Source: an uncultured Bacteroides sp.
GTDB lineage: Bacteria > Bacteroidota > Bacteroidia > Bacteroidales > Bacteroidaceae
DNA: 64,000 nucleotides
Reading direction: 5' to 3'
NCBI GenBank assembly: GCA_944320865.1
Contig: CALUJC010000007.1
Coordinates: forward strand, 17,560 to 81,559
The notes beneath the pieces were generated by a model. That model was not told the origin of the DNA. It made no database searches and saw only the letters and a list, made by a program, of their open reading frames with translations. Below are positions 25,074-39,281 of this stretch, one piece after another. A program made the translations under genes and the position numbers. Each line of letters starts with the position of its first letter. Positions within the stretch are counted from its first letter, which is position 1.

Positions 25074-25418
25074 TCAAAATATAGCCGCCAGCTTGCGGAT
25101 TTCATCCAGACGCTGCATGAACGTCTTGTCTTTTCGTGCCACCCGCATGTTGTACTTCGTCTGTAGTCGCATCAGGGTTTCCGCACTTACCCCCAATGCC
25201 GCCTCAAATAGCATCGCTGTTTTTTCAGTCACAGGGCGGCGTGCATTCAGTATCTCGTTCAACACAGAGTACCCCATACCTATTTGTTCCGCCAACTTGC
25301 GTTGCGAAATGCCCCGGTATTCAATTTCGTCTTTCAGCACTTCCCCGGGGTGTGTCGGAAATGCCGGCTCAAGATTGTTGGCTATCATTTTAGGGTCAAC
25401 TCCCGGTATTGTTATCAT
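25074..25418 (-). CDS. higA: HigA-family antitoxin (XRE-type HTH)
   Basis: Motif HPGEVLKDEIEYRGISQRKLAEQIGMGYSVLNEILNARRPVT. An alternative ATG lies at 25388 (MIANNL). The gene lies 11 nt downstream of higB. Confidence 0.8.
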   Translation of the reverse strand: MITIPGVDPKMIANNLEPAFPTHPGEVLKDEIEYRGISQRKLAEQIGMGYSVLNEILNARRPVTEKTAMLFEAALGVSAETLMRLQTKYNMRVARKDKTFMQRLDEIRKLAAIF

Positions 25419-25429
25419 GACTGGCTTGG

Positions 25430-25744
25430 TTATTTATAATGGTTTGACAATTCTGTTATGTTGCATATAGTGGCAATGATTTCACCTTCTTTTGTTTGCT
25501 CCTCAAATTCAATGCGATATTGGTCGTTCACTCGAACGGATGATAGTCCGACCTTGTCACCTTTAAGCTTTTCGTAGTTTAATGCATGATACCTGTTGAG
25601 CTCTAATACATTAGGCACTTCCGACATTAGCTCTATTACACGGATGTATTTCCGCACTATTTGTGGCTGAAAGCGGTGTTTCTTGTCAGTTTTGCCCGTG
25701 AGGTACATTATCTGCAAATATTCTTCTTTGAAAACGATTTCCAT
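25430..25744 (-). CDS. higB: HigB-like RelE/ParE-superfamily toxin (plasmid-maintenance killer family)
   Basis: Start re-set to MEIVFKEEYL (104 aa). Motif YEKLKGDKVGLSSVRVNDQYRIEFE. Toxin-first gene order is typical of higBA. Confidence 0.75.
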   Translation of the reverse strand: MEIVFKEEYLQIMYLTGKTDKKHRFQPQIVRKYIRVIELMSEVPNVLELNRYHALNYEKLKGDKVGLSSVRVNDQYRIEFEEQTKEGEIIATICNITELSNHYK

Positions 25745-25884: not shown

Positions 25885-25892
25885 TATATTTG
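25885..25892 (+). promoter_or_regulatory. -7 box TAnnTTTG upstream of the ATPase gene
   Basis: tatatttg, 19 nt upstream of the ATG at 25911. Confidence 0.4.
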
Positions 25893-25910
25893 CAATAAAA
25901 TAAAGAAGCT

Positions 25911-27050
25911 ATGCAGAAACCAACGATATTAAATCCTTTCGTGGTGGGACGATATGTGTCCGAACATTATTTCTGCGACCGGGAAAAAGAAACGGAATTC
26001 TTGGTCAAGCAGGTGGAGAACGGGCGGAATGTAGCACTTATTTCTCCACGGCGCATGGGGAAAACCGGACTGATTTGGCATTGTTTCAGTCAGCCCCGCT
26101 TCAGAGACAATTTCCATACTTTCTTTGTGGACATTTACTCCACCACTTCCTTGGCAGAATTTGTTTACTTATTGGGAAAATCCATTTACGAAGAATTAAA
26201 GCCCAAGAGGCAGGATTGGGCGGAACGTTTTTTCCAAATCATTCGCTCTTTGCGCGTGGGCTTTAAGCTGGATGCTGTCACAGGTGAGCCCGGTCTCGAC
26301 ATCGGTTTAGGCGATATACAGGTGCCGGAAACCACACTCGATGAAATCTTTACTTATCTGGAGGATGCCGATAGACCTTGCTTGGTTGCCATCGATGAGT
26401 TCCAGCAAATCAGTTCGTATGAAGAAAAAAACGTGGAAGCCCTGTTGCGCACCCATATCCAGCAGTGCAAGCATACGCAATTCATTTTCTCCGGGAGCAA
26501 ACGGCATTTGATGAGCAACATGTTCAACTCTTCTTCCAAGCCTTTTTACCAAAGTGCCATCAGCATGAGCCTGGCGCCTATACCGCTGGAGGCCTATGTC
26601 GCCTTCGCTTCCGGGTTGTTTGAAGAACGGGGCAAGCATGTGGAGCCGGGTTTGGTGGAGGCTGTATACCAACGTTTCGAGGGGTGCACCTGGTTTATGC
26701 AAATGTTTATGAATGAGCTGTTTGCCTTGACTGCCCCCGGTGCACTGTGCGGCATAGACAAATTGGAAACTGCCATGACCAATGTTATCCGTGCGCAAGA
26801 AGAAAGTTACAAGGATTTGCTTTCCCATCTTGCCCCCAAGCAAAAAATGGTGCTTCAAGCCATCGCGAAAGAAGGGAAAGCTGCGGGCATCACTTCGGCT
26901 GCTTTTATCAAGAAATACAATCTTCCTTCAGCCAGTTCTGTGCAGTCGGCCGTCAAGCCTTTATTGAGGAATGATTGGGTCACGCACGACGGCGAGGCCT
27001 ACCGGGTGTATGACTACTTTTTTGCCGAATGGCTGAAGATAGAATACTGA
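25911..27050 (+). CDS. AAA+ ATP-binding protein (archaeal-ATPase/DUF234-like family)
   Basis: N-terminal FVGRYVSEHYFCDREKETEFL. Walker A is SPRRMGKTGL. Walker B is LVAIDEFQ. The C-terminus looks winged-helix-like. Confidence 0.7.
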   Translation: MQKPTILNPFVVGRYVSEHYFCDREKETEFLVKQVENGRNVALISPRRMGKTGLIWHCFSQPRFRDNFHTFFVDIYSTTSLAEFVYLLGKSIYEELKPKRQDWAERFFQIIRSLRVGFKLDAVTGEPGLDIGLGDIQVPETTLDEIFTYLEDADRPCLVAIDEFQQISSYEEKNVEALLRTHIQQCKHTQFIFSGSKRHLMSNMFNSSSKPFYQSAISMSLAPIPLEAYVAFASGLFEERGKHVEPGLVEAVYQRFEGCTWFMQMFMNELFALTAPGALCGIDKLETAMTNVIRAQEESYKDLLSHLAPKQKMVLQAIAKEGKAAGITSAAFIKKYNLPSASSVQSAVKPLLRNDWVTHDGEAYRVYDYFFAEWLKIEY

Positions 27051-27255: not shown

Positions 27256-29007
27256 ATGAAACAAACTGCTGCCTCACTCTGCACCCTGTTGCTGCTCTGC
27301 CTGTGCTTCGTGGCTTGCAGGCAGGCGCCTTACCCTGCTTTACTCCTGCAGGCCGACTCGCTGCTGCGGACGGGGCCGGACAGTGCCATGGCCTTGCTGC
27401 GGCAGGCCGCCCCGCTGATGGCGCAGGAGCCCGAGGCCACCCGCATGTACTACCGCCTGCTCTGCGTGAAGGCGGCGGACAAGGCCTACGTGGTCCACAC
27501 CTCGGACAGCCTCATCCGCCCCGCCATAGCTTACTACGAGGAGCACCGGGACAGGCGGCACCTGCCAGAGGCTTACTACTACGGCGGCCGCGTGTATCGC
27601 GACCTGGGCGACGCGCCGCAGGCGCTGGACTATTTGCAGCGGGCCTCGGATATTCTGCCTGAGGGGGAGGGCGACATGCTGAAAAGCAAAATCTACAGCC
27701 AGATGGCCATGCTTTTCCTCTATCAGCACATGTATGATGAAGCGTTGGATATTCTTCGCAAAGCCCATGCGCACAATGTGGCGACCGGTAACGTCAGGAG
27801 CCGTATTTTCAATTTGCGGGATATGGCGGACGCTTTTCGTGGAATCAATCAGATGGATAGTGCTTTATGCTACTTTCAAAAGTCTTACGACCTAGCTTGC
27901 GATAACAGCATGGTTGACCTGGCCAACATGGTTCAGAGCCAAATAGCAAGTATGTATGACTTGCTGGGCGAGTACGATAAGGCGCGAGAGGCTCTGCAGC
28001 AGGCATTTAAGTATAAGCACAAAGCAGGGCAAAGTGCTATCTATTCTATTGCCGCAGATATTTATCTGCATTGCGGGCAAGTGGATTCTGCCTTGTATTA
28101 TAATACCCGCTTGTTGGATATGGGTAACGTCTATGGTAAAAGGGCCGCTTATATGGATTTGGCACAGATGGCTATGGAAAACAACGACGCCAAGAAGGCT
28201 TTGGAATATCTGCATGATTATGCACTTTATACGGATTCTGTTGAGCAGATGACGGATATGGAGACTGTCAGAAGAATGCATGCATTGTATAATTATCAGC
28301 TACGTGAAAAGGAAAATGCCCGGTTAAAGGCTGCCAATCGACAGAAGCAGACATTGATTAATTATATGCTCGTTGCCGGTTTGGTTTTGTTCTCATTGTT
28401 GTTTGCCTACCTGCAATATAGCCGTAGGAAGAGAATGGAGCTACAGATTCAATTAGAGAAAGCCGAACGCCTCAAAAATGAATTGTATAGGCAAAGCGAA
28501 AGCTACATTAAAGAGAATAATGCTAAAATAACCCGGCTGGAAGAACAGTTGCGGGAAAGTGATGCTTCTTTGCAGAAACAGCTGGAAGCACAAAGAGAAG
28601 CGATGCTTTACGAAAACAGGCAGGCTTATATGGCTTTAGAGAAACAAAAGCAGGTGTCGGCAGCTATTAACGACTCGGGTATACGGAAAGACATTTTGGT
28701 CAAATTGAATACTTGCGATAGTTGTAAGAAGGTATTGACCGTGACTGATTGGCGCGCCATAGAGCAGGAGATTGAGCAAATTTCATCGGGCTTTAAAATA
28801 AGGTTATACAATCTATGCAGTAAACTTAGCGAAAACGAGTATCATATCTGTCTGCTGATAAAACTTGGATTTCAGCCTACAGAAATAGCCAAGCTGACCT
28901 TGCACAGCAAAGAAAGCATTACTTCTACCCGGCGCCGTTTGTATGAAAAAGTATTTGGCAGCAAGGGTAGCCCGAAGGATTGGGACGAGGTGATTTATGC
29001 TCTTTGA
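27256..29007 (+). CDS. Transmembrane one-component regulator: lipoprotein-type signal, TPR sensor region, TM helix, coiled coil, LuxR-like HTH
   Basis: Start re-set to the ATG at 27256 (the ORF-track start is a TTG). The lipobox is LCFVAC and TPR-like repeats follow. A TM segment LINYMLVAGLVLFSLLFAYLQY is followed by RRKR. A long heptad coiled coil runs MELQIQLEKAERLKNEL... The C-terminus is SENEYHICLLIKLGFQPTEIAKLTLHSKESITSTRRRLYEKV. Confidence 0.75.
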   Translation: MKQTAASLCTLLLLCLCFVACRQAPYPALLLQADSLLRTGPDSAMALLRQAAPLMAQEPEATRMYYRLLCVKAADKAYVVHTSDSLIRPAIAYYEEHRDRRHLPEAYYYGGRVYRDLGDAPQALDYLQRASDILPEGEGDMLKSKIYSQMAMLFLYQHMYDEALDILRKAHAHNVATGNVRSRIFNLRDMADAFRGINQMDSALCYFQKSYDLACDNSMVDLANMVQSQIASMYDLLGEYDKAREALQQAFKYKHKAGQSAIYSIAADIYLHCGQVDSALYYNTRLLDMGNVYGKRAAYMDLAQMAMENNDAKKALEYLHDYALYTDSVEQMTDMETVRRMHALYNYQLREKENARLKAANRQKQTLINYMLVAGLVLFSLLFAYLQYSRRKRMELQIQLEKAERLKNELYRQSESYIKENNAKITRLEEQLRESDASLQKQLEAQREAMLYENRQAYMALEKQKQVSAAINDSGIRKDILVKLNTCDSCKKVLTVTDWRAIEQEIEQISSGFKIRLYNLCSKLSENEYHICLLIKLGFQPTEIAKLTLHSKESITSTRRRLYEKVFGSKGSPKDWDEVIYAL

Positions 29008-29242: not shown

Positions 29243-29626
29243 ATGAAGTTGTTTATTTGCTGCATCCTAACTGTATTTTGTATGAATCTGTATGCCAGTG
29301 ATAGTAGAAAAAACATTTGGCTATCGTGTTCATATTACAATGATTATGATAAACTGAGAAGTACAGATGACCGTTCTTTCGTTACAGAGCTTTCAGCCTG
29401 TTATGACAGCAACACTATTTATTTGTATTCAGAGAAGGCTTTCCACGAGGTGCACATCGTGGTTACAGACGCCAGTGGCTCCATGCTTTGTGAGGAATAT
29501 ACTTCTTTAGTTTCGGGGGCAGAACACTCCTTGTTTATTGGTGATATTGCTGTCGGTGAGTACCAGTTGATTATTGATACAGAGATAGGCCGGTATCAAG
29601 GCTCTTTTCAAATAGCTAATGAGTAA
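29243..29626 (+). CDS. Small secreted beta-sandwich protein, DUF3244-like
   Basis: Start re-set to MKLFICCILTVFCMNLYA (signal peptide). The pattern TIYLYSEKAFHEVHIVVTDASGSMLCEEY...GEYQLIIDTEIGRYQGSFQI resembles Bacteroidales DUF3244 proteins. Confidence 0.55.
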   Translation: MKLFICCILTVFCMNLYASDSRKNIWLSCSYYNDYDKLRSTDDRSFVTELSACYDSNTIYLYSEKAFHEVHIVVTDASGSMLCEEYTSLVSGAEHSLFIGDIAVGEYQLIIDTEIGRYQGSFQIANE

Positions 29627-29667: not shown

Positions 29668-30956
29668 ATGAAAACAAGAAATTTATGCCTTAGCATGGCA
29701 GTAGGGCTGTTGTTTTGCCTATCAGCCTGTACTGAGAATGAATTCGATTTGCCCACAGAAGTTCAGCCGGAACAACTTCTGGCTACAAGGGCATTGGAAG
29801 CGGATACGTTGAAGCGGATTCTATTGTGCTTTTCCAGGTAGACCCGGATACGCTTCCTCCCCGAATTCAGACACTGGCAAGTACAAACTATGTGCCTTAT
29901 CTTAGTGATAACCTGTTTGCCATCAGGAATATGCCGATACGTATCTCTACTCAAGAGAGTACACCTAATTATTTGACATTTAGTGCCCAAGGGGAAGCTG
30001 TTGTGCCTAAAGCCAAAAATGATAAGGATGATGAAAAACAACGGTTTTATATAGAAGTATTGCCTGCTACAGCGGGTATTCCTTATGTAATTCGAACATG
30101 GAATGGCGGTTATCCGCTTGCCGTAGGGCAATATAGCAATAACCCGGAGCATAAACTGCTATATGCAGCCCCCACTACTACGGCAACTTTGCCGGCTGCT
30201 GCTTGGGAAATTTATGCATCTTCTACTTCAGGTTATCTTACGGTAGAAAGCCCGGCATTGATGGAAATGGGCAGTAGCGGGAGTTGGATGGACTATTATT
30301 ATTGCGTGTGGGAACATCAAGGCGCAGGTAATGAAGTAACTTTCAGCAAATATACGCAGAAGGATGGGCAGGAGTTCGCTTTTACGCCTGTGGATGAAGT
30401 TGAGATAGAAGATATTCAATTTTTTAATAATTATGCATCCTCTGTTACGCAGAAGAATGATGCTACAATAGAAGAGACTTATACGAATTATAGTCATTCA
30501 GATGAACCTTATGACATGCCGTTTGAAAAAGATTTTACTGAAAGCTATAACTTCAACGAGTTTAAGGGTGTCAATTTTGAGTATTCCAATCCTTCTATAT
30601 CTGTTCTAAGGCCTTCTGTGTCGCAAGGTACTTTACTGCTTCCTTCAAATGTGAATGATTCCATATTTGTCACTTATAGCGGTAAAAGTGCTATAAATCA
30701 TATTTCGAATGAGGTGCAATTAGATGTTCCTGCAAGAACTCGATTGACTTTAACTTATCATGTTCATGTTTATGAGGTGAAGGCTTATTATGAAGCTACC
30801 CTTAAAATTTCGTATGCAGATGAAGAAAGACGGACTAAAGTTGCCGGAATCTGGGAAGGTACTGTCTATGTAGACGAAGTAGTAAATACTGATCATGATT
30901 ATAGATATACGAATATAGATACAGGTGTTATTTCCGGCAAACCAAGATTACGTTAA
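29668..30956 (+). pseudogene. Frameshifted lipoprotein gene (lectin-like N-terminal half, beta-rich C-terminal half)
   Basis: The ATG at 29668 opens a lipoprotein signal (MKTRNLCLSMAVGLLFCLSAC-TENEFD) that stops at 29839..29841. The 376-codon body (ORF 29826..30956) is in the -1 frame, which is open from 29742. Both frames are therefore open over 29742..29838, so a 1-nt deletion or 2-nt insertion lies there. Confidence 0.6.
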
Positions 30957-30971: not shown

Positions 30972-32609
30972 ATGAAAAGAACAATTATAAGTTTATTGTC
31001 AGGCATGTTGCTGTTTGCGGCATGCACAAATGAAATGACCGGTCCTCAGGCTGGCATTGAATCTGGAACTCAGAAAGAAGTAGTGTTGCAGGAAAGAGCA
31101 TCTTATCTGCCTACGGAATGGACAGTGAAAAAGAATAGCAAACCGGCTACGCGCAGCGTACAGTCGGTAGAAGAGTATATCGGGCGATCGTATGACATTG
31201 GAAATACCATATTAGGTGATCCTGATAATGTCCGACTGCCGGTATTGGATTATGAGAAAATCAAGTCGAGAGTAATTAGTGATTTTGCAGGAACAACTGA
31301 AATCGCTTCATATGCGTATGCTGATTATGACCGATATGAGGAGAATGTGCTTGAAACAAAGGAAATAAGTTCTGGCTTTTCTATCAATTTGCTCATTTTT
31401 AAATTTGGAAGAGAAAAGAAAACGACAGAGACTTTTAAGACGCAAACTATTGATGAAAATAGGCAAGTGTTTGGAGAAGTGGACGTGGAGGTACGTGACC
31501 AAGCTTATCAAATATCAACGACATCGGCTACACTTAAGAATTTGGCTGCCAATGCGCTTTCAGAAGATTTCAAGTTCGACCTGTATTTTGCCCCGATGGT
31601 AGAGGTTTTAAATAATTATGGTCCATTTGTTATTACCGGCTATTATTCTGGTGGAAGGGCTACAGCTATGTATTATGGCTACAGTTCAGAAAATACTACC
31701 GCTGAGAATAGAGAAAAAGATTTGTCTAAAGATATTAATGCGTCTTTTGCATGGGGGAGCCAAAAGAAAGATTCACTGAAATCTGTAGGATTGGATTTTG
31801 GCTTTGGAACTGATAATGGTAATAGCGAGGCTTATGAACGGTCGTTGGAAGAGGTTTATATGCAAGTGAAAACACAAGGAGGCAATAAGAATTTACAATG
31901 CAATACAAATGCAGGTGAAGTAGGTACTATGAGTGTAGATCTGTCTAGTTGGTTAAGTTCGTTAGACGATAAGAGTACGCATACTTTAATTGGCATTCGG
32001 GATGGCGGGCTTACCGGATTGAATTCTTTTATGTTGGAAGAAAATTTTAAACGCAGGATGCAAGATACACATTTGGGACACTTAAATGTGGATGCATTCT
32101 TGGAGCCTTATATTGAGATAGGCAGGGTGTATGTACGTGCCACATCTTCCGGCGAAAAGCTGTATAAGATTGCCCCTATACTGAACACAAGACAGGGTGA
32201 TAAAATTGTGCTAAATAATGATGAAGATGCACAGTTTACTGACGAAGAGTTGAGGAAAAATAACGATAATGATTACTTCATGACTCAAAGTCAGGCTATT
32301 GCTGCGGAGAAAGGGCAGTATTATAAATGTGCCATCACGGCCAATCCTAATCTTAGGGTAATGCCTTTGCTTAGAGTACCACTTTGCATTGAACTTGGTG
32401 AGATTGATGAGAGTCGGATGTGCAAGTTCTTCAATGAAGAAAACAATATGTGGTACATTTACGACCCGGTAGCACTTACTGCTTATTCTTTCTATTTAGA
32501 CGACTTTGTCTTAGATATGTATGGCATGAGGGAGTGGGTAGAAAGTCTGCCTACAAAGAGTATTTCCATGGTGAACTTGTATATGCGTTATACCATAATC
32601 GGGTTGTAA
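30972..32609 (+). CDS. MACPF-domain lipoprotein (BSAP-like candidate pore-forming toxin)
   Basis: Lipobox is LLFAAC-TNE. MACPF-type signature ...FAPMVEVLNNYGPFVITGYYSGGRA fits [YW]-G-x-x-[FYV]-x6-G-G. Length is 545 aa. The gene starts 15 nt after the previous one. Confidence 0.65.
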   Translation: MKRTIISLLSGMLLFAACTNEMTGPQAGIESGTQKEVVLQERASYLPTEWTVKKNSKPATRSVQSVEEYIGRSYDIGNTILGDPDNVRLPVLDYEKIKSRVISDFAGTTEIASYAYADYDRYEENVLETKEISSGFSINLLIFKFGREKKTTETFKTQTIDENRQVFGEVDVEVRDQAYQISTTSATLKNLAANALSEDFKFDLYFAPMVEVLNNYGPFVITGYYSGGRATAMYYGYSSENTTAENREKDLSKDINASFAWGSQKKDSLKSVGLDFGFGTDNGNSEAYERSLEEVYMQVKTQGGNKNLQCNTNAGEVGTMSVDLSSWLSSLDDKSTHTLIGIRDGGLTGLNSFMLEENFKRRMQDTHLGHLNVDAFLEPYIEIGRVYVRATSSGEKLYKIAPILNTRQGDKIVLNNDEDAQFTDEELRKNNDNDYFMTQSQAIAAEKGQYYKCAITANPNLRVMPLLRVPLCIELGEIDESRMCKFFNEENNMWYIYDPVALTAYSFYLDDFVLDMYGMREWVESLPTKSISMVNLYMRYTIIGL

Positions 32610-33075: not shown

Positions 33076-33115
33076 TGCTGCCGGTATCCCTCCCTGGGGT
33101 ATCGGCAGCATTTTT
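33076..33115 (+). terminator. Rho-independent terminator closing the toxin operon
   Basis: Stem tgctgccg / cggcagca with a 19-nt loop, followed by ttttt. Confidence 0.55.
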
Positions 33116-33129: not shown

Positions 33130-33876
33130 TCACTTCTTAATGACGGCCCGCACCACAAACCAGGCGTGGAGGAGGAAGGTGGCGGGCCAGCCGTAGTGGC
33201 GGGTCATGATGCGGAAGCGCTCCAGCAGGGAGGCGCGGTGGTTGCGGGTGGTGAGGCCTTCGTCGAGGTAGTCGATGAGGGTGAGGCGGGTGTTGTGCGT
33301 GGTGCGGGCTTGCTTCAGGATGCGGATGCACCAGTCGAAGTCGGCCGAGAAGCGGTAGCGCAGGTCGTAGCGGGGGGCCAGGGAGGCTTTGGGCCAGAAG
33401 GCCTGGTGGCACACCAGCATGCCTTGGCGGAAGCTGCGCCACGTGAGCTGCCGGGGGGCACGGAGGCGGCGCATGCGCACGAAGTGGCCTTCATGGTCCA
33501 CCAGCTCGGTTTCGCCATAGATGACGTCGGGCAGCTCCTGCCCCGCGAGGCTGTGCACGGCTTGCAGCAGGGTGTCGTCTTCGTGGAAGCTGTCGCCAGC
33601 GTTGAGGAAGATGAGGTAGTCGCCCGTGGCGCGGGCCATGCCTTTGTTCATGGCGTCGTACAGTCCCTTGTCGGGCTCGCTGACGACGAGGGCGATGCGG
33701 TCGCGGTAGCGGTGCACGATGTCGAGGGTGCCGTCGGTAGAGCCTCCGTCGATGATGATGTACTCCACGTGGTGGTAGGTCTGGGTGATGACGCTTTGTA
33801 TGGTGTCTTCCAGCACGGCGGCGGCGTTGTAGGTGACGGTGATGACGCTGAACCTGGGGGTGGGGTGGTGAAGCAT
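33130..33876 (-). CDS. Family 2 glycosyltransferase
   Basis: Motifs FSVITVTYNAAAVLEDTIQSVITQTY..EYIIIDGGSTDGT. DxD-context motif is FLNAGD. Confidence 0.9.
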   Translation of the reverse strand: MLHHPTPRFSVITVTYNAAAVLEDTIQSVITQTYHHVEYIIIDGGSTDGTLDIVHRYRDRIALVVSEPDKGLYDAMNKGMARATGDYLIFLNAGDSFHEDDTLLQAVHSLAGQELPDVIYGETELVDHEGHFVRMRRLRAPRQLTWRSFRQGMLVCHQAFWPKASLAPRYDLRYRFSADFDWCIRILKQARTTHNTRLTLIDYLDEGLTTRNHRASLLERFRIMTRHYGWPATFLLHAWFVVRAVIKK

Positions 33877-33888
33877 GGGCGCAGGGGG

Positions 33889-35139
33889 TTAGAGCTTGTT
33901 GTAGAGGTCAATGTACTTCTTTGCCACCACGTTTTCGGCGTAGTGGGTGGCGGCCTTGCGGGCGGCTTGCTCGCAGAGGCTGTCGTAGCCCGGCTCGGTG
34001 AGCAGCCAGTAGATGCCGTTGGCAAAGTCGCCGGCGTCGCGGTAGGTGGCCACGTAGCCGTTGTGCAGGTGGTCTATCATCTCGGGTATGCCGCCCACGT
34101 TGAAGCCCACGCAGGGGGTGCCGCAGGCCATGGCTTCCATGATGGTGTTGGGCAGGTTGTCTTCCAGCGAGGGGGTGGCAAAGAGGTCGACGGCGTTGTA
34201 GATGTCTACCAGCTGGTGGTCGTCGGTCACAAAGTCCAAGGGGTAGACCTTGAAGGGGAGCAGGCTGCCCAGCTGTTGGGAGTTGCGGCCGAAGGCCACC
34301 ACGGCCAGACGGTCGCGCAGCTCAGGGTGCTGGTCGGCCAGCAGGCGGCAGGCCTTCACGAGGTAGTCTATGCCCTTGCGCTTGTCGGTTATCTTGACGG
34401 AGCCGAAGAGCATGAGCCGCATGTCCTGGGGAAGCTGGAGCTTGTGGCGTGCCGCTGCCTTGTCGTGCGGGCGGAAGAGGTTGGTGTTGATGGCGTTGGG
34501 GATGCTGGTGACGGGCATGCCTTGCAGCAGGGCGCTTTGGCGTGCCTGCCCTTCGAGCCACCGGCTGCAGGTGACGAAGTGTATCTGCCGCCCGGCGTAG
34601 AGGGCCTGCTTGCGGCGGAAGGTGGTGGCGGAGAGGTCTTTGTTCCGCCGCCCGCCGGCCAGGTAGGGGCAGTTGTGGCAGGCCGTGCGGTAGTGGTCGC
34701 AGCGGCGGGCATAGTGGCAGATGCCGGTGCAGGGCCACATGTCGTGCATGGTCCACACCACGGGTTTGCCCGAGTCGAGTATCTTGCGGATGTCTTTCAG
34801 CGAGAGCATGCCTTGGTTCACCCAGTGCAGGTGGACGATGTCGGCCTGCTGGAATTCGGGCAGCGAGGTGATGTCGTTGCCCGTGTTGGCAATGTCCACG
34901 GCAAAGAGGTTCTGGCGGCTGAAGCGGTTGGCTGTCCAAATGACCACGCGTTCCCATACAAACTGCCACACCATGCGCCAACTGGGTTTCAGCGCCACTA
35001 CGGTGCTTTGGCCGGTTTGCTTGTTGCGCACCAGCATCTTGGCCTTGATGCCTTGCGCCTTGAGGGCTTCCATCAGCCGGTTGGCGGCTATGGCGGCTCC
35101 GCCGATGCGTTCGGAAGTGTTGATGAGGATTACTCGCAT
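33889..35139 (-). CDS. GT4 (GT-B fold) glycosyltransferase
   Basis: N-terminal ILINTSERIGGAAIAA and C-terminal ATPSLEDNLPNTIMEAMACGTPCVGFNVGGIPEMI. Confidence 0.9.
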   Translation of the reverse strand: MRVILINTSERIGGAAIAANRLMEALKAQGIKAKMLVRNKQTGQSTVVALKPSWRMVWQFVWERVVIWTANRFSRQNLFAVDIANTGNDITSLPEFQQADIVHLHWVNQGMLSLKDIRKILDSGKPVVWTMHDMWPCTGICHYARRCDHYRTACHNCPYLAGGRRNKDLSATTFRRKQALYAGRQIHFVTCSRWLEGQARQSALLQGMPVTSIPNAINTNLFRPHDKAAARHKLQLPQDMRLMLFGSVKITDKRKGIDYLVKACRLLADQHPELRDRLAVVAFGRNSQQLGSLLPFKVYPLDFVTDDHQLVDIYNAVDLFATPSLEDNLPNTIMEAMACGTPCVGFNVGGIPEMIDHLHNGYVATYRDAGDFANGIYWLLTEPGYDSLCEQAARKAATHYAENVVAKKYIDLYNKL

Positions 35140-35212
35140 GTTTTTGTCATCGTTTAGGGTTAGGAGAACTCTTTACGGGGGCAAAGTTAGGGTTTTTCTT
35201 GGGAATATGCTT

Positions 35213-35396
35213 GTTTACCGTATAGTAAATCGTCCGTTTGCCGTATAGTAAACGGTCTGTTTACCGTATAGTAAACGGTCCGTTTACCGTATAGTAAATG
35301 GTCTGTTTACCGTATAGGCATCCGGCGACCCCTCGGATAGGCATCCGGCGGACCCTCGGATAGGTATTCGGCAGACCCTCGGATAGGTATCCGGCG
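35213..35396. repeat. 8 x 23-bp strictly phased array made of two related unit types
   Basis: Unit starts are 35213, 35236, 35259, 35282, 35305, 35328, 35351 and 35374. The first units are gtttaccgtatagtaaacggtcc. Unit 5 is the hybrid gtttaccgtataggcatccggcg. The last units are gaccctcggataggcatccggcg. Each unit has an internal dyad, for example ccgtttac..gtaaacgg. Confidence 0.85.
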
Positions 35397-35401
35397 GCCT
35401 G

Positions 35402-36328
35402 TCACCTGCCGAAGTCGCCCCGCAGCGTGCGCTTGATGCGCCGGATGGCCTTGGCCCAGAAGCCGAAGTGGCGGCGGTAGTAGCGCGCGAGGCATTGGCG
35501 TGCGGCCTCGTTTTCCTCCACAGGGGAGATGGGGGCGACGGGCAATGGCTCCATCCACAGCTTGGAGCGGTAGAGGCCTCCGCCGCCGCAATGGGTGCCG
35601 CTGCCGTCGAAGCCGTCGTTCAGCACCAGCGAGCGGCCCACGTTGAGCGAGAGCACGTCGGCCAGGAAGAGGCTGGCATTCCAGCGGATGGCCCACGAGT
35701 CGTTCTTCCCCTCCACCTGGCGGCGCAGCATGCGGGTGTAGCGGTAGGTGCCGTCGAAGTCGAAGCGCCGCGTCAGTCCGCGCCGCTGCAGCTCGTCCAG
35801 CAGGGCGCGGCCGTCGGGGTTGAACAGCCGCCAGGCCCTTTGCCACGTGGCCCATCCCCAGCTGCCCGTCCAGCGGATGAGGAAGGTGGGGGGCAGGGCC
35901 GGGTCGCCGGTGAAGTCGCATGCCTGGATGTGGCCCACGCGTGGCTCGTCCCGGTACGCCTCCAGCGCGTCGTTCATGAAGCGCAGGAAGTAGGGCGACA
36001 GCACCAGGTCGTCTTCCAGCACGATGACGCGGCCGTAGCGGTTCACCTGTTCGGTCACCCCGGCAATGATGCTGCGGGCCAGTCCCCAGTTTTCCGCGCG
36101 CTCAATGATGTCCACCTGCGCGAAGCCGCGGATGGTGCGCAGGTAGCGGCGCACCTCCTGCACGGCGGGGCGTGCGGCATCATTGCGCGGGGCGTCGCTG
36201 TACACTATCAGGCGGCTCTGCCGGGCTTCGGCGTTCCGGCACAGGCTCTCCACCAGGCGGCGCGTGTGCTGCGGGCGGTTGTAGGCAAAGAGCAGGATGG
36301 GGGCAAGGCGGTTATCGGTTGTTTCCAT
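35402..36328 (-). CDS. Glycosyltransferase, GT-A fold (GNT-I-like/family-2-like)
   Basis: Motif PILLFAYNRPQHTRRLVESL...IVYSDAPRN and acidic motif LEDDLVLS. It lies within the glycosyltransferase cluster. Confidence 0.65.
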   Translation of the reverse strand: METTDNRLAPILLFAYNRPQHTRRLVESLCRNAEARQSRLIVYSDAPRNDAARPAVQEVRRYLRTIRGFAQVDIIERAENWGLARSIIAGVTEQVNRYGRVIVLEDDLVLSPYFLRFMNDALEAYRDEPRVGHIQACDFTGDPALPPTFLIRWTGSWGWATWQRAWRLFNPDGRALLDELQRRGLTRRFDFDGTYRYTRMLRRQVEGKNDSWAIRWNASLFLADVLSLNVGRSLVLNDGFDGSGTHCGGGGLYRSKLWMEPLPVAPISPVEENEAARQCLARYYRRHFGFWAKAIRRIKRTLRGDFGR

Positions 36329-37316
36329 AAGGCTGATGGGTTAGTTTGCAATATATTTTGGTGAAGAACCGGCGGAGGCTGTACCGCCCGAGGCGTTGGC
36401 GGATGAAGGCGGGCAGCATGCGCAGGTAAGAGGCGGTGAGGCCGGCCTCCCGCAAGCAGGCAAACCATAGGCCGCGCTTTGGCACTTGCAGGCTGTTCCA
36501 TGGCTTCAGCGGCCCCACGTAGTGCACTTGCACGGGGCGCGCCAAGGCCCGGGTGAACATGGCCAGCCTTTCGGCCTCGCCCTCGGGAAGCCAACGGCTC
36601 GTCGAGACAAAGTGGACGTCTCCGCGAGAGAAAGGCTTGTAATAGGTGTTGCACACCACGTATTCCATAGGCAGGTGGCGCACGCGCGGCCCGCAGCACA
36701 GCGCCAGGCAGTCTTGCTCGGGCAGGGGCAGGCGGTGGTAGTTCCGGCGGTAGAAGTCTGTCAGCCTCTCCAGCATCCCGTCGCGGCGGATGGTCTTGAG
36801 GTTGAACAGCAGGTAGCCGGCCATGATTTCCTGCTCCAGGGCTTGCTTTTCTTGCGGTGAAAACAAGTCGTCGGCATAAGCTTTCATGCGCCCGCTTTCC
36901 AGTACCTGCCCTACGCCGGCATAGTAGAAGTCTTCGTCGGGAAACAGGAAGTAGGAGGGAGAGATGTCTCCTGTGAACACGACATCGACATCAGAGCAAA
37001 GAATGCGGTCGTATTGCGGGAATATCTCTGCGGCTATCAGCTTGTAGTAGATTTCTTTGGAGAAGTGCGATTTCCCTTGCCCGATATCGCCTTGCCCATC
37101 AAAGTGTGAGACATCGACAAATTGCAGGTCGGCATTGGGAAAGCGTTTTACCAAGCGTGTGAGTCTCTTTTGGATGGCCTGGGGGATGGAGGTGTGCAAT
37201 ACGTACAATTTATATTGGTATAGCGGGGCGGCATGGCGCAACAATGAGTAGAAGGCCACGGCAGCAGGCACCGCGTAGTAGCGGTCGAAGGTGAAGAATA
37301 TAGGTATTTGCTTCAT
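36312..37316 (-). CDS. Family 8 glycosyltransferase
   Basis: Start re-set to MKQIPIFFTFDRYYAVPAAVAFYSLL. Motif ILCSDVDVVF (DxD). There is a 4-nt ATGA overlap with the upstream GT2 and a 17-nt overlap with the downstream gene. Confidence 0.8.
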   Translation of the reverse strand: MKQIPIFFTFDRYYAVPAAVAFYSLLRHAAPLYQYKLYVLHTSIPQAIQKRLTRLVKRFPNADLQFVDVSHFDGQGDIGQGKSHFSKEIYYKLIAAEIFPQYDRILCSDVDVVFTGDISPSYFLFPDEDFYYAGVGQVLESGRMKAYADDLFSPQEKQALEQEIMAGYLLFNLKTIRRDGMLERLTDFYRRNYHRLPLPEQDCLALCCGPRVRHLPMEYVVCNTYYKPFSRGDVHFVSTSRWLPEGEAERLAMFTRALARPVQVHYVGPLKPWNSLQVPKRGLWFACLREAGLTASYLRMLPAFIRQRLGRYSLRRFFTKIYCKLTHQPYGNNR

Positions 37317-38275
37317 GGGCGTAGGGGATTGATGATGTATCGCCCGTGGTCGCGGATGAAGGCCAGGGGCAGGAAGAAGGCACGCAGGCATTGCACGGCG
37401 CCCTGCACGCCGGGGGCAGCTTCTTGCCTATGCCTCAGGCAGAGCAGGCAGGCGGAGAGAATGCCCCACAGGCTCCCCTTTGCCATGAGGCGGACGGCTT
37501 GCCCGGCGGTGTCATCCCGGAAAGGCACTTGCCCCAGCAGGGAGAAGTAGAGGGCGGTGCGTCGCCTGTTGTCTGCCTTCCACAGGGCGCGGATGGCTTG
37601 CAGGTAGCCGTGCCATTTGCTTGCTTTTGGCGTATCGCTCCGGTAGGTGGCGGCCTCTTCATGCCTCCGCCAACGCACCAGCGGGGTGTGCAGATAGCGC
37701 ACCCTGCCCATGCTGCCGGCCAGGGTGAACAGCAGGTAGTCGTAGGACACGTTGTAGCCCTTGAACGGTTTCAGCTTCTCCCGCACCTCTTGCCGGAACA
37801 GCATCTGGTGGCCGTAGGCGCGTGGGTAGAGTATGGCGCACAGCGGGGGGAAAGACGTGGGCAATGGGGTGGTATATAGCAGGCGGGGTTTCGGACTGCC
37901 GTCCATCACGTAGGAGTTGTGGAAGATGAGCGGGCTGTCGCCTATCTCCCGCATCAGTGTCTCCAGTTTGTCCGGCAGCCAGATGTCGTCTTGGTCGCAG
38001 CAGGCTATATACTCTCCCGTGGCACGTTGCAGGGCGGTGAGAAAGTTCCGGTTGAACCCCAGCCGTCGCGGGTTGGCATGAAAGCGGATGTTCCTGTCGG
38101 GATATTGCTCCCCGTAGGTGTGGACAATCTGCCCGGTGCCGTCTGTAGAGCAGTCATCCTGCACAATGAGCTCGTAGAACGGGTAAGTCTGGGCGAGCAG
38201 CGAGTCTATTTGCTCCCGCAGGTAGGCCTCCCCGTTGTAGGTGCAGAGTATGATGGATATCTTCCGTGTACGCAT
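37313..38275 (-). CDS. Family 2 glycosyltransferase
   Basis: Motif ISIILCTYNGEAYLREQIDSLLAQTY..ELIVQDDCSTDGT. CDQDDIW motif is present. Confidence 0.9.
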   Translation of the reverse strand: MRTRKISIILCTYNGEAYLREQIDSLLAQTYPFYELIVQDDCSTDGTGQIVHTYGEQYPDRNIRFHANPRRLGFNRNFLTALQRATGEYIACCDQDDIWLPDKLETLMREIGDSPLIFHNSYVMDGSPKPRLLYTTPLPTSFPPLCAILYPRAYGHQMLFRQEVREKLKPFKGYNVSYDYLLFTLAGSMGRVRYLHTPLVRWRRHEEAATYRSDTPKASKWHGYLQAIRALWKADNRRRTALYFSLLGQVPFRDDTAGQAVRLMAKGSLWGILSACLLCLRHRQEAAPGVQGAVQCLRAFFLPLAFIRDHGRYIINPLRP

Positions 38276-38279
38276 GGCC

Positions 38280-39281
38280 TTATCGTGCTTTTATCTTCTG
38301 CAAGAGGGTGATGATGCGGTCGTACAGCCTTTTGCCGGGGGTGATGTGCGGGATGCCGGTGTAGCGCGATGCCCTTGCCCAAAAGGCCTGCTCGTCCTGT
38401 ATGCAAGGCTTATCCACCAGGAGTTTATACAGGCGATACAGCCCGCGCTTTTTCTCATAGGGCAGGTGCCACACGGCAAGGTGCTCGTCGCCGGGGTGCA
38501 CATTGTTGAAGCGTGGAGTGGTCCACATGCGTTTCACGTAGCGGTTGCCTATGGTGTTGCGCAGGTGCAGGCGTTCGGCCAGCACGCTGAGGAACAGGGC
38601 TTCCTCGTTCAGCTTGGGCAGCCCTTGGCGGAAGCGTTGCAGGTTGTATTGCCACAAAGGCCGGTAGCCCTCGTTTACCCGTGCTACGGCATCGCCGCGC
38701 AGGGCAATGAATTCCCCGCCGTAATAGCTGAGGGGGGGCGACGGTGCTTCGCCGTAGCAATCGGCATACAGCGCTTCCATCTGCTGCAGGTTTATGCCGT
38801 TGAGCGGCTCGGCAGGGTCGGTGGCCTGCTCGTAGAGGGCGCAGCCTTGGGCTTCTACTTCCCGGAACAGCGGGGCAAGGGAATGTCGGCACAGACAGTC
38901 GGCATCACATACCAGCAAGGTATCAGTCGCCGCCATTCGGCCCTCCATGTAGCGCAGGATGTCGTACAGGTAAAACTGGTTGCGCCATGCCTTGTACCAG
39001 CCTTCGGGAGGCATGCACCGGTAGGGCAGGCGTATCACCTCCACTTGCAGGCGTGCAAACAGTTGTTCCAGATAGGTAGGCAACTGTTGCGCGTTGGTGA
39101 AAAACAGCAGCCGGCTTTCCGGGTTGTAGTGCCGGAAGGTGACAAAGAAAGGCACTTGAATCTGCATGTAGATGGAGTGCGTCAGTCCGGAATCCCCCCG
39201 TTGCCCGGCTTGGGGATAATAGCTGGCATCTTTGGCAGACTCCTTGTAAAACCAGGTGGCGATATAAGATGTGGAACTCAT
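38280..39281 (-). CDS. Hypothetical protein; possible nucleotide-sugar transferase
   Basis: No family recognised. The motif LLVCDADCLC is DxD-like. The gene sits inside the GT cluster and overlaps the wzx stop by 4 nt. Confidence 0.45.
   Translation of the reverse strand: MSSTSYIATWFYKESAKDASYYPQAGQRGDSGLTHSIYMQIQVPFFVTFRHYNPESRLLFFTNAQQLPTYLEQLFARLQVEVIRLPYRCMPPEGWYKAWRNQFYLYDILRYMEGRMAATDTLLVCDADCLCRHSLAPLFREVEAQGCALYEQATDPAEPLNGINLQQMEALYADCYGEAPSPPLSYYGGEFIALRGDAVARVNEGYRPLWQYNLQRFRQGLPKLNEEALFLSVLAERLHLRNTIGNRYVKRMWTTPRFNNVHPGDEHLAVWHLPYEKKRGLYRLYKLLVDKPCIQDEQAFWARASRYTGIPHITPGKRLYDRIITLLQKIKAR

What the first reader, a model, noticed from the sequence alone, without database searches (positions are those of the whole stretch)
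30972..32609. MACPF-signature lipoprotein adjacent to a surface-glycan locus (BSAP paradigm)
The motif ...VEVLNNYGPFVITGYYSGGRA fits the MACPF core signature ([YW]-G-[TS]-H-[FY]-x6-G-G), with PF in place of TH, a level of divergence that is common in bacterial members. The Ser/Thr/Gly-rich stretches on both sides of it are compatible with the two membrane-inserting helix clusters. Known BSAPs target either an OM beta-barrel or the LPS glycan. Their genes sit next to the gene or locus that makes the producer's resistant version of the target. This gene lies about 500 bp from a GT/Wzx cluster.
Basis: partly seen in the sequence, partly recalled or inferred. Interest (0 to 1): 0.7.

Follow-up and report, generated by a model that had tools for sequence, protein, structure and literature searches.

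The report
BSAP-5-type pore-toxin and immunity cassette
The gene is a real perforin-like (MACPF) surface lipoprotein, but it belongs to an already catalogued mobile cassette of two pore-forming toxins and an immunity protein (BSAP-5 type) that was inserted beside a sugar-coat gene cluster, so the proposed toxin/glycan-locus link is not supported.

Summary
The ORF 30972-32609 is real. It is a lipoprotein and a true MACPF protein: Pfam MACPF, D2 and D3 all pass, and it aligns end to end with the BT_3439 crystal structure 3KK7 (E=2e-126). It passes NCBIfam's equivalog cutoff for "BSAP5a family pore-forming toxin". It is one gene of a compact operon: DUF3244 protein, a lectin/aerolysin-type lipoprotein (BSAP5b-like), the MACPF, and a small lipoprotein (BSAP-5i immunity-like), with a BT3442-like TPR protein upstream. 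This matches BT_3442-BT_3438 of B. thetaiotaomicron gene for gene. The partner sits directly upstream of the MACPF in 18 of 23 reference loci and co-diverges with it (Mantel r=0.93). The three-gene core also occurs on conjugative Bacteroides plasmids. In this window the partner gene has a 1-bp frameshift. The glycan-locus reading fails on several counts. The cassette has 40% GC and the GT genes 60-70%. The two are convergent units separated by a terminator-like hairpin. The nearest GTs are conserved in 80 sister-taxon loci that lack the cassette. No GT genes flank the cassette elsewhere. The C-terminal domain is not the glycan-type DUF5648, and a putative immunity gene is present. Verdict: a divergent new member of a known family. 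The adjacency looks incidental.

The parts
25074..25744 (-). HTH_3 antitoxin-like (25074-25418) and HigB-like toxin (25430-25744) pair at the left edge of the low-GC region
   Evidence: ORFs; Pfam labels HTH_3 and HigB-like_toxin on the identical contigs; GC falls from 0.62 to 0.38-0.45 here
25911..27050 (+). ATPase_2/AAA-type ATPase, 379 aa; part of the inserted region, role unknown
   Evidence: Pfam ATPase_2 E=4.2e-9; absent from all 80 sister-taxon loci
27256..29007 (+). BT_3442-like TPR protein with a lipoprotein-type signal and one predicted membrane helix; putative regulator of the cassette
   Evidence: Pfam TPR_12 E=2.5e-13; NCBIfam BT3442_fam E=5e-34 but 118 bits, far below the 940 cutoff; homologues 2-4 kb upstream of the MACPF in 7 genome loci. 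A C-terminal HTH is my reading of the sequence only; Pfam did not confirm it
29243..29626 (+). DUF3244 secreted protein, equivalent by position to BT_3441 (which Xu 2010 call Ig-like); first gene of the operon
   Evidence: Pfam DUF3244 E=1.6e-8, 34.8 bits against a cutoff of 25; DUF3244 proteins in the same position in L011, L019, L021, L022; Xu 2010; a TAnnTTTG-like box about 35 nt upstream (consensus match only)
29668..30956 (+). BSAP5b-like partner lipoprotein gene (beta-trefoil lectin-like N-domain plus aerolysin-type pore module), disrupted here. The signal-peptide/lipobox fragment is 29668-29841. A 1-bp deletion lies between 29816 and 29817. The body ORF is 29826-30956
   Evidence: Frameshift relative to the intact 429-aa allele in L002, L003, L005; profile against PDB 1W3A LSLa E=2.4e-7; AF2 plus Foldseek top hit 1W3A E=1.9e-8, followed by Dln1, epsilon-toxin, Cry51, aerolysin; NCBIfam BSAP5b_fam 307 bits, below the 380 cutoff
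30972..32609 (+). The flagged gene: BSAP5a/BT_3439-type MACPF lipoprotein, 545 aa
31617..31655 (+). MACPF signature variant YGPFVITGYYSGG (residues 216-228)
   Evidence: compare Bth-MACPF YGEFVx6GG
32103..32606 (+). C-terminal D2 (residues 378-480) and D3 (483-545) domains; 'group 2' C-terminal domain, presumed receptor-binding module
   Evidence: Pfam PF20779 and PF20785; classification in PMC12853789
32611..33033 (+). Small lipoprotein, 140 aa, BSAP-5i immunity-like; starts 1 nt after the MACPF stop codon
   Evidence: NCBIfam BSAP5i_fam E=1.2e-22, 80 bits, below the 150 cutoff; homologues downstream of the MACPF in L010, L013, L021, L022, L023 and on the plasmid
33076..33110 (+). Terminator-like hairpin (15-bp stem, then TTTTT) closing the cassette operon
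33130..40837 (-). Context, not part of the system: native glycan locus downstream of metG. Order: Wzx, 333-aa unknown, GT2, GT8, GT2-like, GT4, GT2
   Evidence: Pfam; conserved ends and a variable middle in 80 sister-taxon loci

Best explanation
The flagged gene is the MACPF component (BSAP5a-like, BT_3439-like) of a horizontally acquired operon. The operon order is DUF3244 protein, lectin/aerolysin-type pore-forming lipoprotein (BSAP5b-like), MACPF lipoprotein, small immunity-like lipoprotein (BSAP-5i-like). A BT_3442-like TPR protein lies upstream. Shown here: the identities and folds of the two toxin-family proteins; the conserved gene order across Bacteroidota; co-divergence of the two toxin genes; carriage of the core on conjugative plasmids; the insertion of the cassette at the end of a native glycan locus; and a frameshift in the 5b gene of this window. 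Inferred: both lipoproteins are exported to the cell surface or vesicles; they bind a target-cell surface receptor through the D2/D3 domains and/or the lectin-like domain; they form beta-barrel pores that kill competing bacteria; and the small lipoprotein protects the producer. Self-protection would then come from an immunity protein rather than from altering a glycan, so the neighbouring GT cluster is an incidental neighbour. Because 5b is frameshifted here, this strain probably makes the MACPF and the immunity protein but no exported 5b.
For: MACPF identity: (BSAP5a_fam 605 bits, above the 500 cutoff). Partner fold. Synteny with BT_3442-BT_3438. The partner is directly upstream of the MACPF in 18 of 23 genome loci spanning Bacteroides, Prevotella, Segatella, Parabacteroides, Muribaculaceae, Limibacterium and Sphingobacterium. 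Mantel r=0.929, with 0 of 2000 permutations reaching it. BT_3439-3441 are co-induced 60-96-fold in co-culture with Akkermansia. All three NCBIfam BSAP-5 models pass their cutoffs in L021 and L022. The same three genes are on 44-57 kb conjugative plasmids of seven Bacteroides/Phocaeicola species. Horizontal origin: GC 0.36-0.46 against 0.60-0.70, and the cassette is absent from 80 sister-taxon loci. The core cassette is 99.5-100% identical with no non-synonymous change in the gap-free comparisons, while the flanking GT genes differ by 0.3-5.6%. Operon anatomy: gaps of 42, 15 and 1 nt, then a terminator-like hairpin.
Against: No experiment on this protein or on BT_3439 was found in the held literature. 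The JBC 2025 paper says the Bt_3439 receptor is unknown. The primary report behind the NCBIfam BSAP-5 names could not be found, so 'toxin' and 'immunity' rest on curated names and on inference. The window's 5b (307 bits, cutoff 380) and 5i (80 bits, cutoff 150) score below the equivalog cutoffs. The N-terminal lectin-like domain is only moderately modelled (pLDDT about 60-75). The immunity-like protein has no structural or Pfam match. The gene downstream of the MACPF belongs to different families in other genera. No conspecific strain lacking the cassette was found, so strain-level antagonism cannot be inferred from presence/absence.
Confidence: 0.75

Rival explanations
1. One reading: a single-component BSAP that targets an LPS or surface glycan. 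The adjacent GT/Wzx cluster would make the producer's resistant glycan and would have been co-acquired with the toxin gene.
For: The MACPF lipoprotein lies 521 bp from a Wzx/GT cluster. The middle GT genes of this cluster (333-aa unknown, GT2, GT8, GT2-like) have only 25-38% identical counterparts, or none, in most sister taxa; one gene (GT2-like) reaches 68% in four loci. The partner protein has a lectin-like domain that could bind a glycan.
Against: GC of 0.40 against 0.60-0.70. The nearest GT4 and GT2 genes are conserved orthologues in 80 MACPF-less loci, and the middle GT genes vary there without any MACPF. Transcription is convergent, with a terminator-like hairpin between the units. No DUF5648 domain is present. 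An immunity-like gene is present. No GT genes flank the cassette in 23 genomes or on the inspected plasmid. Sequence divergence is decoupled. The GT2|SIR2 junction holds unrelated cargo in other taxa.
Confidence: 0.06
2. The MACPF works alone as a conventional one-protein BSAP, with receptor binding through D2/D3. The upstream aerolysin-type lipoprotein is an independent second toxin that merely travels with it.
For: All characterised BSAPs (1 to 4) act as single proteins. In 19 of 23 contigs of this species 5b is frameshifted while 5a stays intact with no non-synonymous change. That pattern fits 5a being useful on its own.
Against: Strict adjacency in 18 of 23 loci and Mantel r=0.93. NCBIfam names the two proteins as the 'a' and 'b' parts of one toxin. 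They are co-induced as one operon in B. thetaiotaomicron. Co-inheritance does not prove physical cooperation, so this rival remains open.
Confidence: 0.12
3. In this strain the cassette no longer makes active toxin. With 5b frameshifted, the strain is an immune non-producer that keeps the immunity gene. This agrees with the best explanation on what the cassette is and differs only on its present activity.
For: The 1-bp deletion separates the signal peptide and lipobox from the body of 5b. The allele is in about 19 of 23 contigs from independent assemblies. The 5i gene is 100% conserved.
Against: 5a is intact and shows only synonymous changes. The 5b body has no further lesions, so the event is recent and its effect on killing is unknown. 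Whether 5a needs 5b has not been shown.
Confidence: 0.35
4. The two pore-formers are aimed at eukaryotic (host or protist) membranes rather than at bacteria.
For: The closest structural relatives of the partner (LSLa, Dln1, lamprey LIP, epsilon-toxin, aerolysin) act on eukaryotic cells. Xu et al. 2010 raised a virulence role.
Against: The family is named as a BSAP with an immunity protein, and a producer-side immunity lipoprotein makes sense only for a bacterial target. All tested Bacteroidales MACPF toxins are antibacterial. BT_3439-3441 are induced by a bacterial competitor.
Confidence: 0.05

Closest known systems
BSAP-5 family as curated in NCBIfam release 20 (NF053771 BSAP5a, NF053772 BSAP5b, NF053773 BSAP-5i)
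   Same: Same three genes in the same order. The window's MACPF passes the BSAP5a equivalog cutoff (605 bits, cutoff 500). All three models pass in the Parabacteroides segnis and B. xylanisolvens loci that share the layout.
   Different: The window's 5b (307 bits, cutoff 380; intact allele) and 5i (80 bits, cutoff 150) fall below the cutoffs, so this is a divergent branch. 5b is frameshifted in the window. The host genome is high-GC (Alistipes-like by inference). I could not read the primary description, so functional equivalence is untested.
BT_3442-BT_3438 cluster of Bacteroides thetaiotaomicron, including Bth-MACPF (BT_3439, PDB 3KK7)
   Same: Gene-for-gene match: TPR protein, DUF3244/Ig-like protein, trefoil 'hemolytic lectin'-like protein, MACPF with D2+D3, small lipoprotein. 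The motif variant Y-G-x-F-V-x6-GG is shared.
   Different: B. thetaiotaomicron has a second, duplicated set (BT_3433-3437) plus a porin, and its cluster follows the fts/mur operon. The window has one set, inserted beside a glycan locus.
BSAP-2 / BSAP-3 / M068_0191 (glycan-targeting BSAPs)
   Same: MACPF surface lipoproteins of gut Bacteroidales that lie next to GT genes.
   Different: These carry a DUF5648 C-terminal domain, have no partner toxin and no immunity gene, and their GT genes are part of the same strain-variable, co-acquired block. None of these features holds here.
Pore-forming lectins LSLa (Laetiporus sulphureus, 1W3A) and SaroL-1 (Salpingoeca rosetta, 7QE4)
   Same: The partner matches the two-domain plan of an N-terminal beta-trefoil lectin followed by an aerolysin-type pore module.
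   Different: The partner is a bacterial lipoprotein, shares about 12% sequence identity, is paired with a MACPF, and its sugar specificity is unknown.
Two-component CDC-like (CDCL) antibacterial toxins of Bacteroidota (PMC11169675)
   Same: Two pore-forming-family proteins encoded together and used against bacteria by gut Bacteroidota (abstract).
   Different: Both CDCL components belong to one superfamily (CDC-like). Here the pair combines an aerolysin-type and a MACPF-type protein.
Pleurotolysin-type fungal binary toxins (aegerolysin PlyA plus MACPF PlyB); from my own knowledge, not tested here
   Same: A small membrane- or receptor-binding partner encoded with a MACPF pore-former.
   Different: The partner fold differs (aegerolysin rather than aerolysin/lectin). 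The system is eukaryotic and has no immunity protein.

Membership tests
MACPF/CDC superfamily (Pfam PF01823) | Profile HMM match above the curated threshold | tested here: met
   23.1 bits against a cutoff of 21.5, E=9.4e-5, residues 182-334
MACPF/CDC superfamily (Pfam PF01823) | Signature Y/W-G-T/S-H-F/Y-x6-G-G | tested here: inconclusive
   The strict pattern is absent. The variant YGPFVx6GG is present and matches the variant seen in the solved Bth-MACPF structure. Positions 1-2 and the GG pair are conserved
MACPF/CDC superfamily (Pfam PF01823) | MACPF fold with two helix clusters (TMH1/TMH2) flanking the bent sheet | tested here: met
   Full-length alignment to crystal structure 3KK7, E=2.2e-126, with only small indels across the TMH1 and TMH2 equivalents. 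Inferred from homology; not modelled separately
MACPF/CDC superfamily (Pfam PF01823) | Oligomeric pore formation in membranes | not testable with these tools
   Needs liposome, electron-microscopy or killing assays
BT_3439-type / BSAP5a family ('group 2' C-terminal domain) | C-terminal D2 (PF20779) and D3 (PF20785) domains | tested here: met
   E=6.5e-37 and 6.5e-22; group definition in PMC12853789
BT_3439-type / BSAP5a family ('group 2' C-terminal domain) | NCBIfam equivalog cutoff for BSAP5a | tested here: met
   605 bits against a cutoff of 500
BT_3439-type / BSAP5a family ('group 2' C-terminal domain) | Lipoprotein signal with an acidic residue shortly after the lipidated Cys | tested here: met
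   LLFAAC18-T-N-E. Surface exposure itself was not tested
BSAP-5 three-gene system | A 5b partner toxin directly upstream | tested here: inconclusive
   A homologue is present (E=2.7e-91) but scores 307 bits, below the 380 cutoff, and is frameshifted in the window
BSAP-5 three-gene system | A 5i immunity protein directly downstream | tested here: inconclusive
   A homologue is present (E=1.2e-22) but scores 80 bits, below the 150 cutoff. Its protective function was not tested
Classic BSAP paradigm (BSAP-1 to -4) | The toxin gene and the replacement target gene(s) form one co-acquired, strain-variable block | tested here: not met
   GC is discordant. The adjacent GT4 and GT2 are conserved orthologues in MACPF-less taxa. 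Divergence is decoupled. The units are convergent with a terminator-like hairpin between them
Classic BSAP paradigm (BSAP-1 to -4) | Presence/absence polymorphism among strains of the species | tested here: not met
   Every conspecific contig found through the exact MACPF, GH35, GT2 or SIR2 proteins, where it reached the site, carries the cassette. Sampling is limited to exact-protein look-ups
Classic BSAP paradigm (BSAP-1 to -4) | Glycan-type C-terminal domain (DUF5648, PF18885) in glycan-targeting members | tested here: not met
   No such Pfam hit at E<=1; definition
Classic BSAP paradigm (BSAP-1 to -4) | Kills strains of the same species that lack it | not testable with these tools
   Needs overlay or competition assays
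Aerolysin/ETX-MTX2 beta-pore-forming toxins (for the partner protein) | Aerolysin-type elongated beta-sheet pore module | tested here: met
   Profile against 1W3A residues 142-308, E=2.4e-7. Foldseek gave 43 PDB hits at E<=1e-3, dominated by aerolysin-family members. The C-terminal half has pLDDT 80-90
Aerolysin/ETX-MTX2 beta-pore-forming toxins (for the partner protein) | Pfam Aerolysin model above the curated threshold | tested here: not met
   13.7-14.1 bits against a cutoff of 24.3
Aerolysin/ETX-MTX2 beta-pore-forming toxins (for the partner protein) | N-terminal ricin-B/beta-trefoil lectin domain as in LSLa | tested here: inconclusive
   Full-length alignments to LSLa and SaroL-1 have TM scores of 0.43-0.50, but pLDDT is 60-75 with disordered loops. 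Only 2 of 20 members give weak RicinB_lectin_2 hits. Xu 2010 predicted a trefoil fold for BT_3440

The most novel reading that the evidence does not exclude
The position beside the glycan locus is not accidental. The lectin-like domain of the 5b partner (or D2/D3 of the MACPF) would recognise the surface glycan made by the hypervariable metG-Wzx...GT4-GT2 locus of sister taxa. The producer's unique middle GT genes would then give a second layer of resistance on top of the immunity protein. This would link a two-family (aerolysin plus MACPF) binary toxin to glycan-type-specific killing in Alistipes-like gut bacteria.
Probability: 0.07. Interest if true: 0.6.

Novelty: new member of a known kind. 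Interest (0 to 1): 0.3.

Why it matters
For annotation: this gene should be labelled a BSAP5a/BT_3439-type MACPF toxin component in a toxin-toxin-immunity cassette. It should not be read as evidence that the neighbouring GT cluster is a toxin-resistance locus. For biology: the cassette pairs two unrelated pore-forming superfamilies (aerolysin-type lectin and MACPF). It has moved into a high-GC, Alistipes-like lineage, and related copies sit on conjugative Bacteroides plasmids, so this weapon family spreads beyond Bacteroides. Most sampled contigs of this species carry a frameshift in one toxin gene while the immunity-like gene is intact. That makes a natural comparison for asking whether both toxin parts are needed, and whether immune non-producers arise in the gut. 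The receptor of this MACPF group is still reported as unknown, and the lectin-like partner suggests a concrete glycan-binding hypothesis to test.

Tried and rejected
(1) Finding the producer species. The genome-contig scan returned only relatives at 43% identity or less, and the exact-sequence cluster look-up gave no names. The Alistipes-like assignment rests only on GC and is an inference.

(2) Finding conspecific strains without the cassette. Look-ups with the exact MACPF, GH35, GT2 and SIR2 proteins found none. L034/L124, which at first looked cassette-free, is the alternative arrangement with a SusC/SusD block and ends before the site.

(3) Deepening the partner alignment. The two word-indexed searches gave only 7-8 proteins, so the AF2 model rests on 8 sequences and has a mean pLDDT of 65.

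(4) Structure of the 140-aa lipoprotein. The single-sequence AF2 model has pLDDT 38 and is unusable. Its family profile has no PDB or Pfam match. The weak Lipocalin_4 hit (E=0.056) was not pursued.

(5) Mobile-element hallmarks. No flanking direct repeats, integrase or tRNA gene were found around 24.9-33.1 kb.

(6) DUF3244 against PDB 3D33. phmmer did not recover it; the best hit was 4G5A at E=0.026. The equivalence to BT_3441 rests on Pfam and on gene position.

(7) A C-terminal HTH in the TPR protein. Pfam does not support it, so I present it only as a reading of the sequence.

(8) Literature. McEneany 2018 and Chatzidaki-Livanis 2014 are not held. No held paper uses the name BSAP-5.
Full report
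OBSERVATION. The ORF at 30972-32609 (+) is real: 545 aa with an ATG start. Its N-terminus (MKRTIISLLSGMLLFAAC-TNE) is a lipoprotein signal with an acidic residue at +4 after the lipidated Cys. The quoted string is residues 210-230, and the core YGPFVITGYYSGG is residues 216-228 (nt 31617-31655). The strict MACPF signature is absent from the window. The relaxed form occurs once in 66,435 stop-free residues, at this site. The motif alone would be weak evidence, but the profile evidence is decisive. Pfam MACPF passes (23.1 bits against a cutoff of 21.5). MACPF_D2 (E=6.5e-37) and MACPF_D3 (E=6.5e-22) are strong. The protein aligns over residues 30-545 with PDB 3KK7, the BT_3439 (Bth-MACPF) crystal structure, at E=2.2e-126. 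Xu et al. 2010 describe the same divergent motif in that structure (225-YGEFVx6GG-237).

WHAT SURROUNDS IT. The gene sits in a low-GC stretch (0.36-0.46 over about 28.2-32.7 kb) inside a 0.50-0.70 GC background. Five plus-strand genes are tightly packed:
- a TPR protein (27256-29007);
- a DUF3244 protein (29243-29626; Pfam E=1.6e-8);
- a roughly 430-aa lipoprotein gene (29668-30956);
- the MACPF;
- a 140-aa lipoprotein (32611-33033).

The gaps between the last four genes are 42, 15 and 1 nt. A 15-bp-stem terminator-like hairpin follows at 33076-33110. Beyond it, on the opposite strand and converging on it, lies the glycan locus: metG, Wzx, a 333-aa unknown, GT2, GT8, GT2-like, GT4, GT2.

THE PARTNER GENE. 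The upstream lipoprotein gave only a sub-threshold Pfam Aerolysin hit. I extracted 16 homologues from reference genomes, all of them lipoproteins. A profile of 20 members matched the pore-forming module of the Laetiporus sulphureus haemolytic lectin LSLa (1W3A, residues 142-308) at E=2.4e-7. An AlphaFold2 model had a mean pLDDT of 65, with 80-90 in the C-terminal half. Its best Foldseek match was LSLa across both domains (E=1.9e-8, TM 0.50). The next matches were Dln1, lamprey LIP, epsilon-toxin, Cry51, parasporin-2, SaroL-1 and aerolysin. The partner is therefore an aerolysin-type pore-former with a lectin-like N-terminal domain. The family is modest in size: 318 representative clusters at E<=1e-3 among 1.84 billion.

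A CONSERVED CASSETTE THAT IS ALREADY KNOWN. A partner homologue lies directly upstream of the MACPF in 18 of 23 reference-genome loci. These cover Bacteroides, Prevotella/Segatella/Hallella, Parabacteroides, Mediterranea, Phocaeicola, Muribaculaceae, Limibacterium and Sphingobacterium. Pairwise distances of partner and MACPF are tightly correlated (Mantel r=0.929; 0 of 2000 permutations reach it). DUF3244 proteins precede the partner in Bacteroides and Parabacteroides loci. A 126-149 aa homologue of the small lipoprotein follows the MACPF in five loci.

Xu et al. 2010 described this same arrangement in B. thetaiotaomicron. BT_3442 is a TPR protein and BT_3441 is Ig-like. BT_3440 was described as 'trefoil fold resembling hemolytic pore-forming lectins'. 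BT_3439 is the MACPF, and BT_3438 is paired with BT_3436. That cluster lies downstream of the fts/mur operon. BT_3439-3441 behave as one operon and are induced 60-96-fold in co-culture with Akkermansia.

NCBIfam release 20 names the three proteins. The MACPF matches 'BSAP5a family pore-forming toxin' at 605 bits, above the 500 cutoff. The partner matches 'BSAP5b family pore-forming toxin' at 307 bits, below 380. The small lipoprotein matches 'BSAP-5i family immunity protein' at 80 bits, below 150. The TPR protein matches 'BT3442 family' far below its cutoff. All three BSAP-5 models pass in the P. segnis and B. xylanisolvens loci with the same layout. I could not find the primary BSAP-5 report in the held library. 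The functional labels are therefore curated names, not results I could check.

HORIZONTAL ORIGIN. A tblastn search of plasmids found full-length relatives (35% identity) on 12 records. Eleven are predicted conjugative, they are 44-57 kb among those listed, and they come from seven Bacteroides/Phocaeicola species. On B. xylanisolvens plasmid NZ_CP041231.1 the MACPF is flanked by a 440-aa BSAP5b protein (416 bits, passes) and a 131-aa BSAP-5i-like protein. Coyne et al. 2014 had listed a MACPF gene in a region transferred between co-resident species. Plasmid carriage, together with the 40% GC, explains how the cassette could reach a high-GC genome. Among gut Bacteroidales, only Alistipes is reported at 53.5-58.5% GC, so an Alistipes-like host is my inference.

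IS THE GLYCAN LOCUS LINKED? I tested the features that define the BSAP-2/-3 paradigm as stated by Roelofs 2016 and the 2025-26 papers.

(a) Co-acquisition. The GT genes have 0.60-0.70 GC and the cassette about 0.40.

(b) Replacement of GT genes. A metagenome scan with the terminal GT2 returned 80 human-gut loci from sister taxa (GT2 71-77% identical, MetG 82-95%, SIR2 70-84%). All share the order metG-Wzx-[variable middle]-GT4-GT2, followed by SIR2 wherever the contig extends that far. None contains the MACPF, partner, DUF3244, TPR, ATPase or small lipoprotein. The two GT genes next to the cassette are therefore native and conserved. The middle of the locus varies among taxa that have never had the cassette. 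In sister taxa with extra DNA at the GT2|SIR2 junction, the cargo is GH115, a GDSL lipase and a methyltransferase. In the window's species the same junction also holds a GH35 gene, plus a SusC/SusD block in some strains. The junction is a general cargo hotspot.

(c) Shared history. Between lineages of this species, the gap-free comparisons of DUF3244, the partner body, the MACPF and 5i are 99.5-100% identical at the nucleotide level. They show no non-synonymous change in the partner, the MACPF or 5i, and one in DUF3244. GT2, GT2-like, GT2c, the 333-aa unknown and Wzx differ by 1.4-5.6% and GT4 by 0.3-1.3%, with many substitutions of both kinds.

(d) Generality. No homologue of the window's GT or Wzx genes lies within 8 kb of the cassette in 23 reference loci (tblastn; phmmer at E<0.01 against 402 ORFs). 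A Pfam tally of 119 flanking ORFs from 13 genera shows TPR, OMP beta-barrel, DUF5036, C39/ABC exporter and Fic families, and no GT family among the 25 most frequent.

(e) Domain type. The C-terminal domain is D2+D3 ('group 2', receptor unknown), not DUF5648.

(f) Self-protection. A 5i-type immunity-like gene is present. Classic BSAPs dispense with immunity genes because the receptor gene is replaced.

(g) Roelofs 2016 note a MACPF gene next to an O-antigen locus (BACUNI_00959) with no detected activity.

Taken together, the adjacency looks incidental.

STATE OF THE SYSTEM IN THIS WINDOW. A 1-bp deletion between 29816 and 29817 (GAAGCGCGATT to GAAGCGGATT) puts the signal peptide and lipobox of 5b (MKTRNLCLSMAVGLLFCLSAC...) out of frame with the body. 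The 5' ORF stops at 29841, and the body ORF starts at a GTG at 29826. The allele appears in contigs from several independent assemblies. It accounts for about 19 of 23 contigs, 15 of them through the tool's 'similar places' grouping. The intact allele is on L002, L003, L004 and L005. The window is 100% identical to L001 across the island. The 5b body has no other lesion, so the event is recent. If both toxin parts are needed, this lineage is an immune non-producer. If 5a works alone, it is still armed.

MECHANISM (inferred). The TPR protein would control the operon. The DUF3244 protein is an accessory of unknown role. 5b and 5a would be lipidated and exported to the surface or to vesicles, as described for BSAPs. 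They would bind a target-cell surface molecule through the lectin-like domain and/or D2/D3. 5b would then insert an aerolysin-type beta-barrel, and 5a a MACPF-type beta-barrel formed from TMH1/TMH2 (residues about 117-164 and 239-291). The 5i protein would block the toxin on the producer. The shown steps are the folds, the gene linkage, the co-inheritance, the mobility and the frameshift. Export, receptor binding, pore formation, cooperation between a and b, and immunity are all inferred.

VERDICT. The glycan-locus paradigm is not supported. The locus is a divergent new member of a known, curated family (BSAP-5 / BT_3439 cluster) in a new, high-GC host, with one toxin gene recently inactivated. 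Interest is modest at 0.3.

Noticed in passing
window 29668-29841 and 29826-30956 (deletion between 29816 and 29817): The lipoprotein gene upstream of the MACPF is split by a 1-bp deletion that detaches its signal peptide. The allele is on about 19 of 23 contigs of this species, and four contigs carry the intact gene.
   Followed up: yes
window 25074-25744: A HigB-like toxin / HTH_3 antitoxin pair sits at the left edge of the low-GC region, next to an ATPase_2-type ATPase (25911-27050). It may be a maintenance module of the inserted DNA.
   Followed up: partly
L002 3914-4065 compared with window 25865-26016: In the alternative strain arrangement, a 152-bp copy of the ATPase gene's 5' end (96% identical) lies to the left of the HigB/HTH pair. 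This suggests the TA pair was inserted with a duplication of that segment.
   Followed up: no
window 24989-25074 compared with L002/L005/L124/L128/L129: There are two arrangements within the species. Some contigs carry a sigma70/FecR/SusC(STN)/SusD block between GH35 and the cassette region. The window lacks it, apparently by a deletion of about 7 kb.
   Followed up: partly
window 35402-39281; L042-L121: The middle of the metG-Wzx...GT4-GT2 glycan locus (333-aa unknown, GT2, GT8, GT2-like) is hypervariable among 80 human-gut sister-taxon loci, while both ends are conserved. This is an O-antigen-like diversity pattern that does not depend on any MACPF gene.
   Followed up: partly
L102 10725-13115; L105 10725-15281: The GT2|SIR2 junction carries unrelated cargo in some sister taxa (GH115, GDSL lipase, methyltransferase). 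The site is a recurrent insertion hotspot.
   Followed up: yes
window 27300-27600, within the TPR gene: A GC spike (0.68) occurs in the 5' part of the TPR gene, while its 3' part has about 0.40 GC. The TPR gene is also far more diverged between lineages (96.9%, 19 non-synonymous changes) than the four genes downstream (99.5-100%). A recombination breakpoint may lie inside or just after this gene.
   Followed up: no
L022 8001-9674 and 10368-12014: The B. xylanisolvens locus has two tandem BSAP5a-type MACPF genes (713 and 583 bits) with a 5i-like gene between them, like the BT_3439/BT_3437 duplication in B. thetaiotaomicron.
   Followed up: partly
flanks of L009-L031 (13 genera): C39-peptidase/ABC bacteriocin-type exporter domains (3 ORFs each), OMP beta-barrels (4), DUF5036 lipoproteins (4) and Fic proteins (3) recur near the cassette in other genomes. 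The gene immediately downstream of the MACPF is a lipoprotein in most of these loci, but it belongs to different families (about 140, 243, 370 or 465 aa).
   Followed up: partly
window 36312-37391 (GT8): The GT8 gene shows several indels between lineages, and gene callers give it different lengths (334 or 298 aa, against a 359-aa ORF here). It overlaps the next GT2 gene.
   Followed up: no
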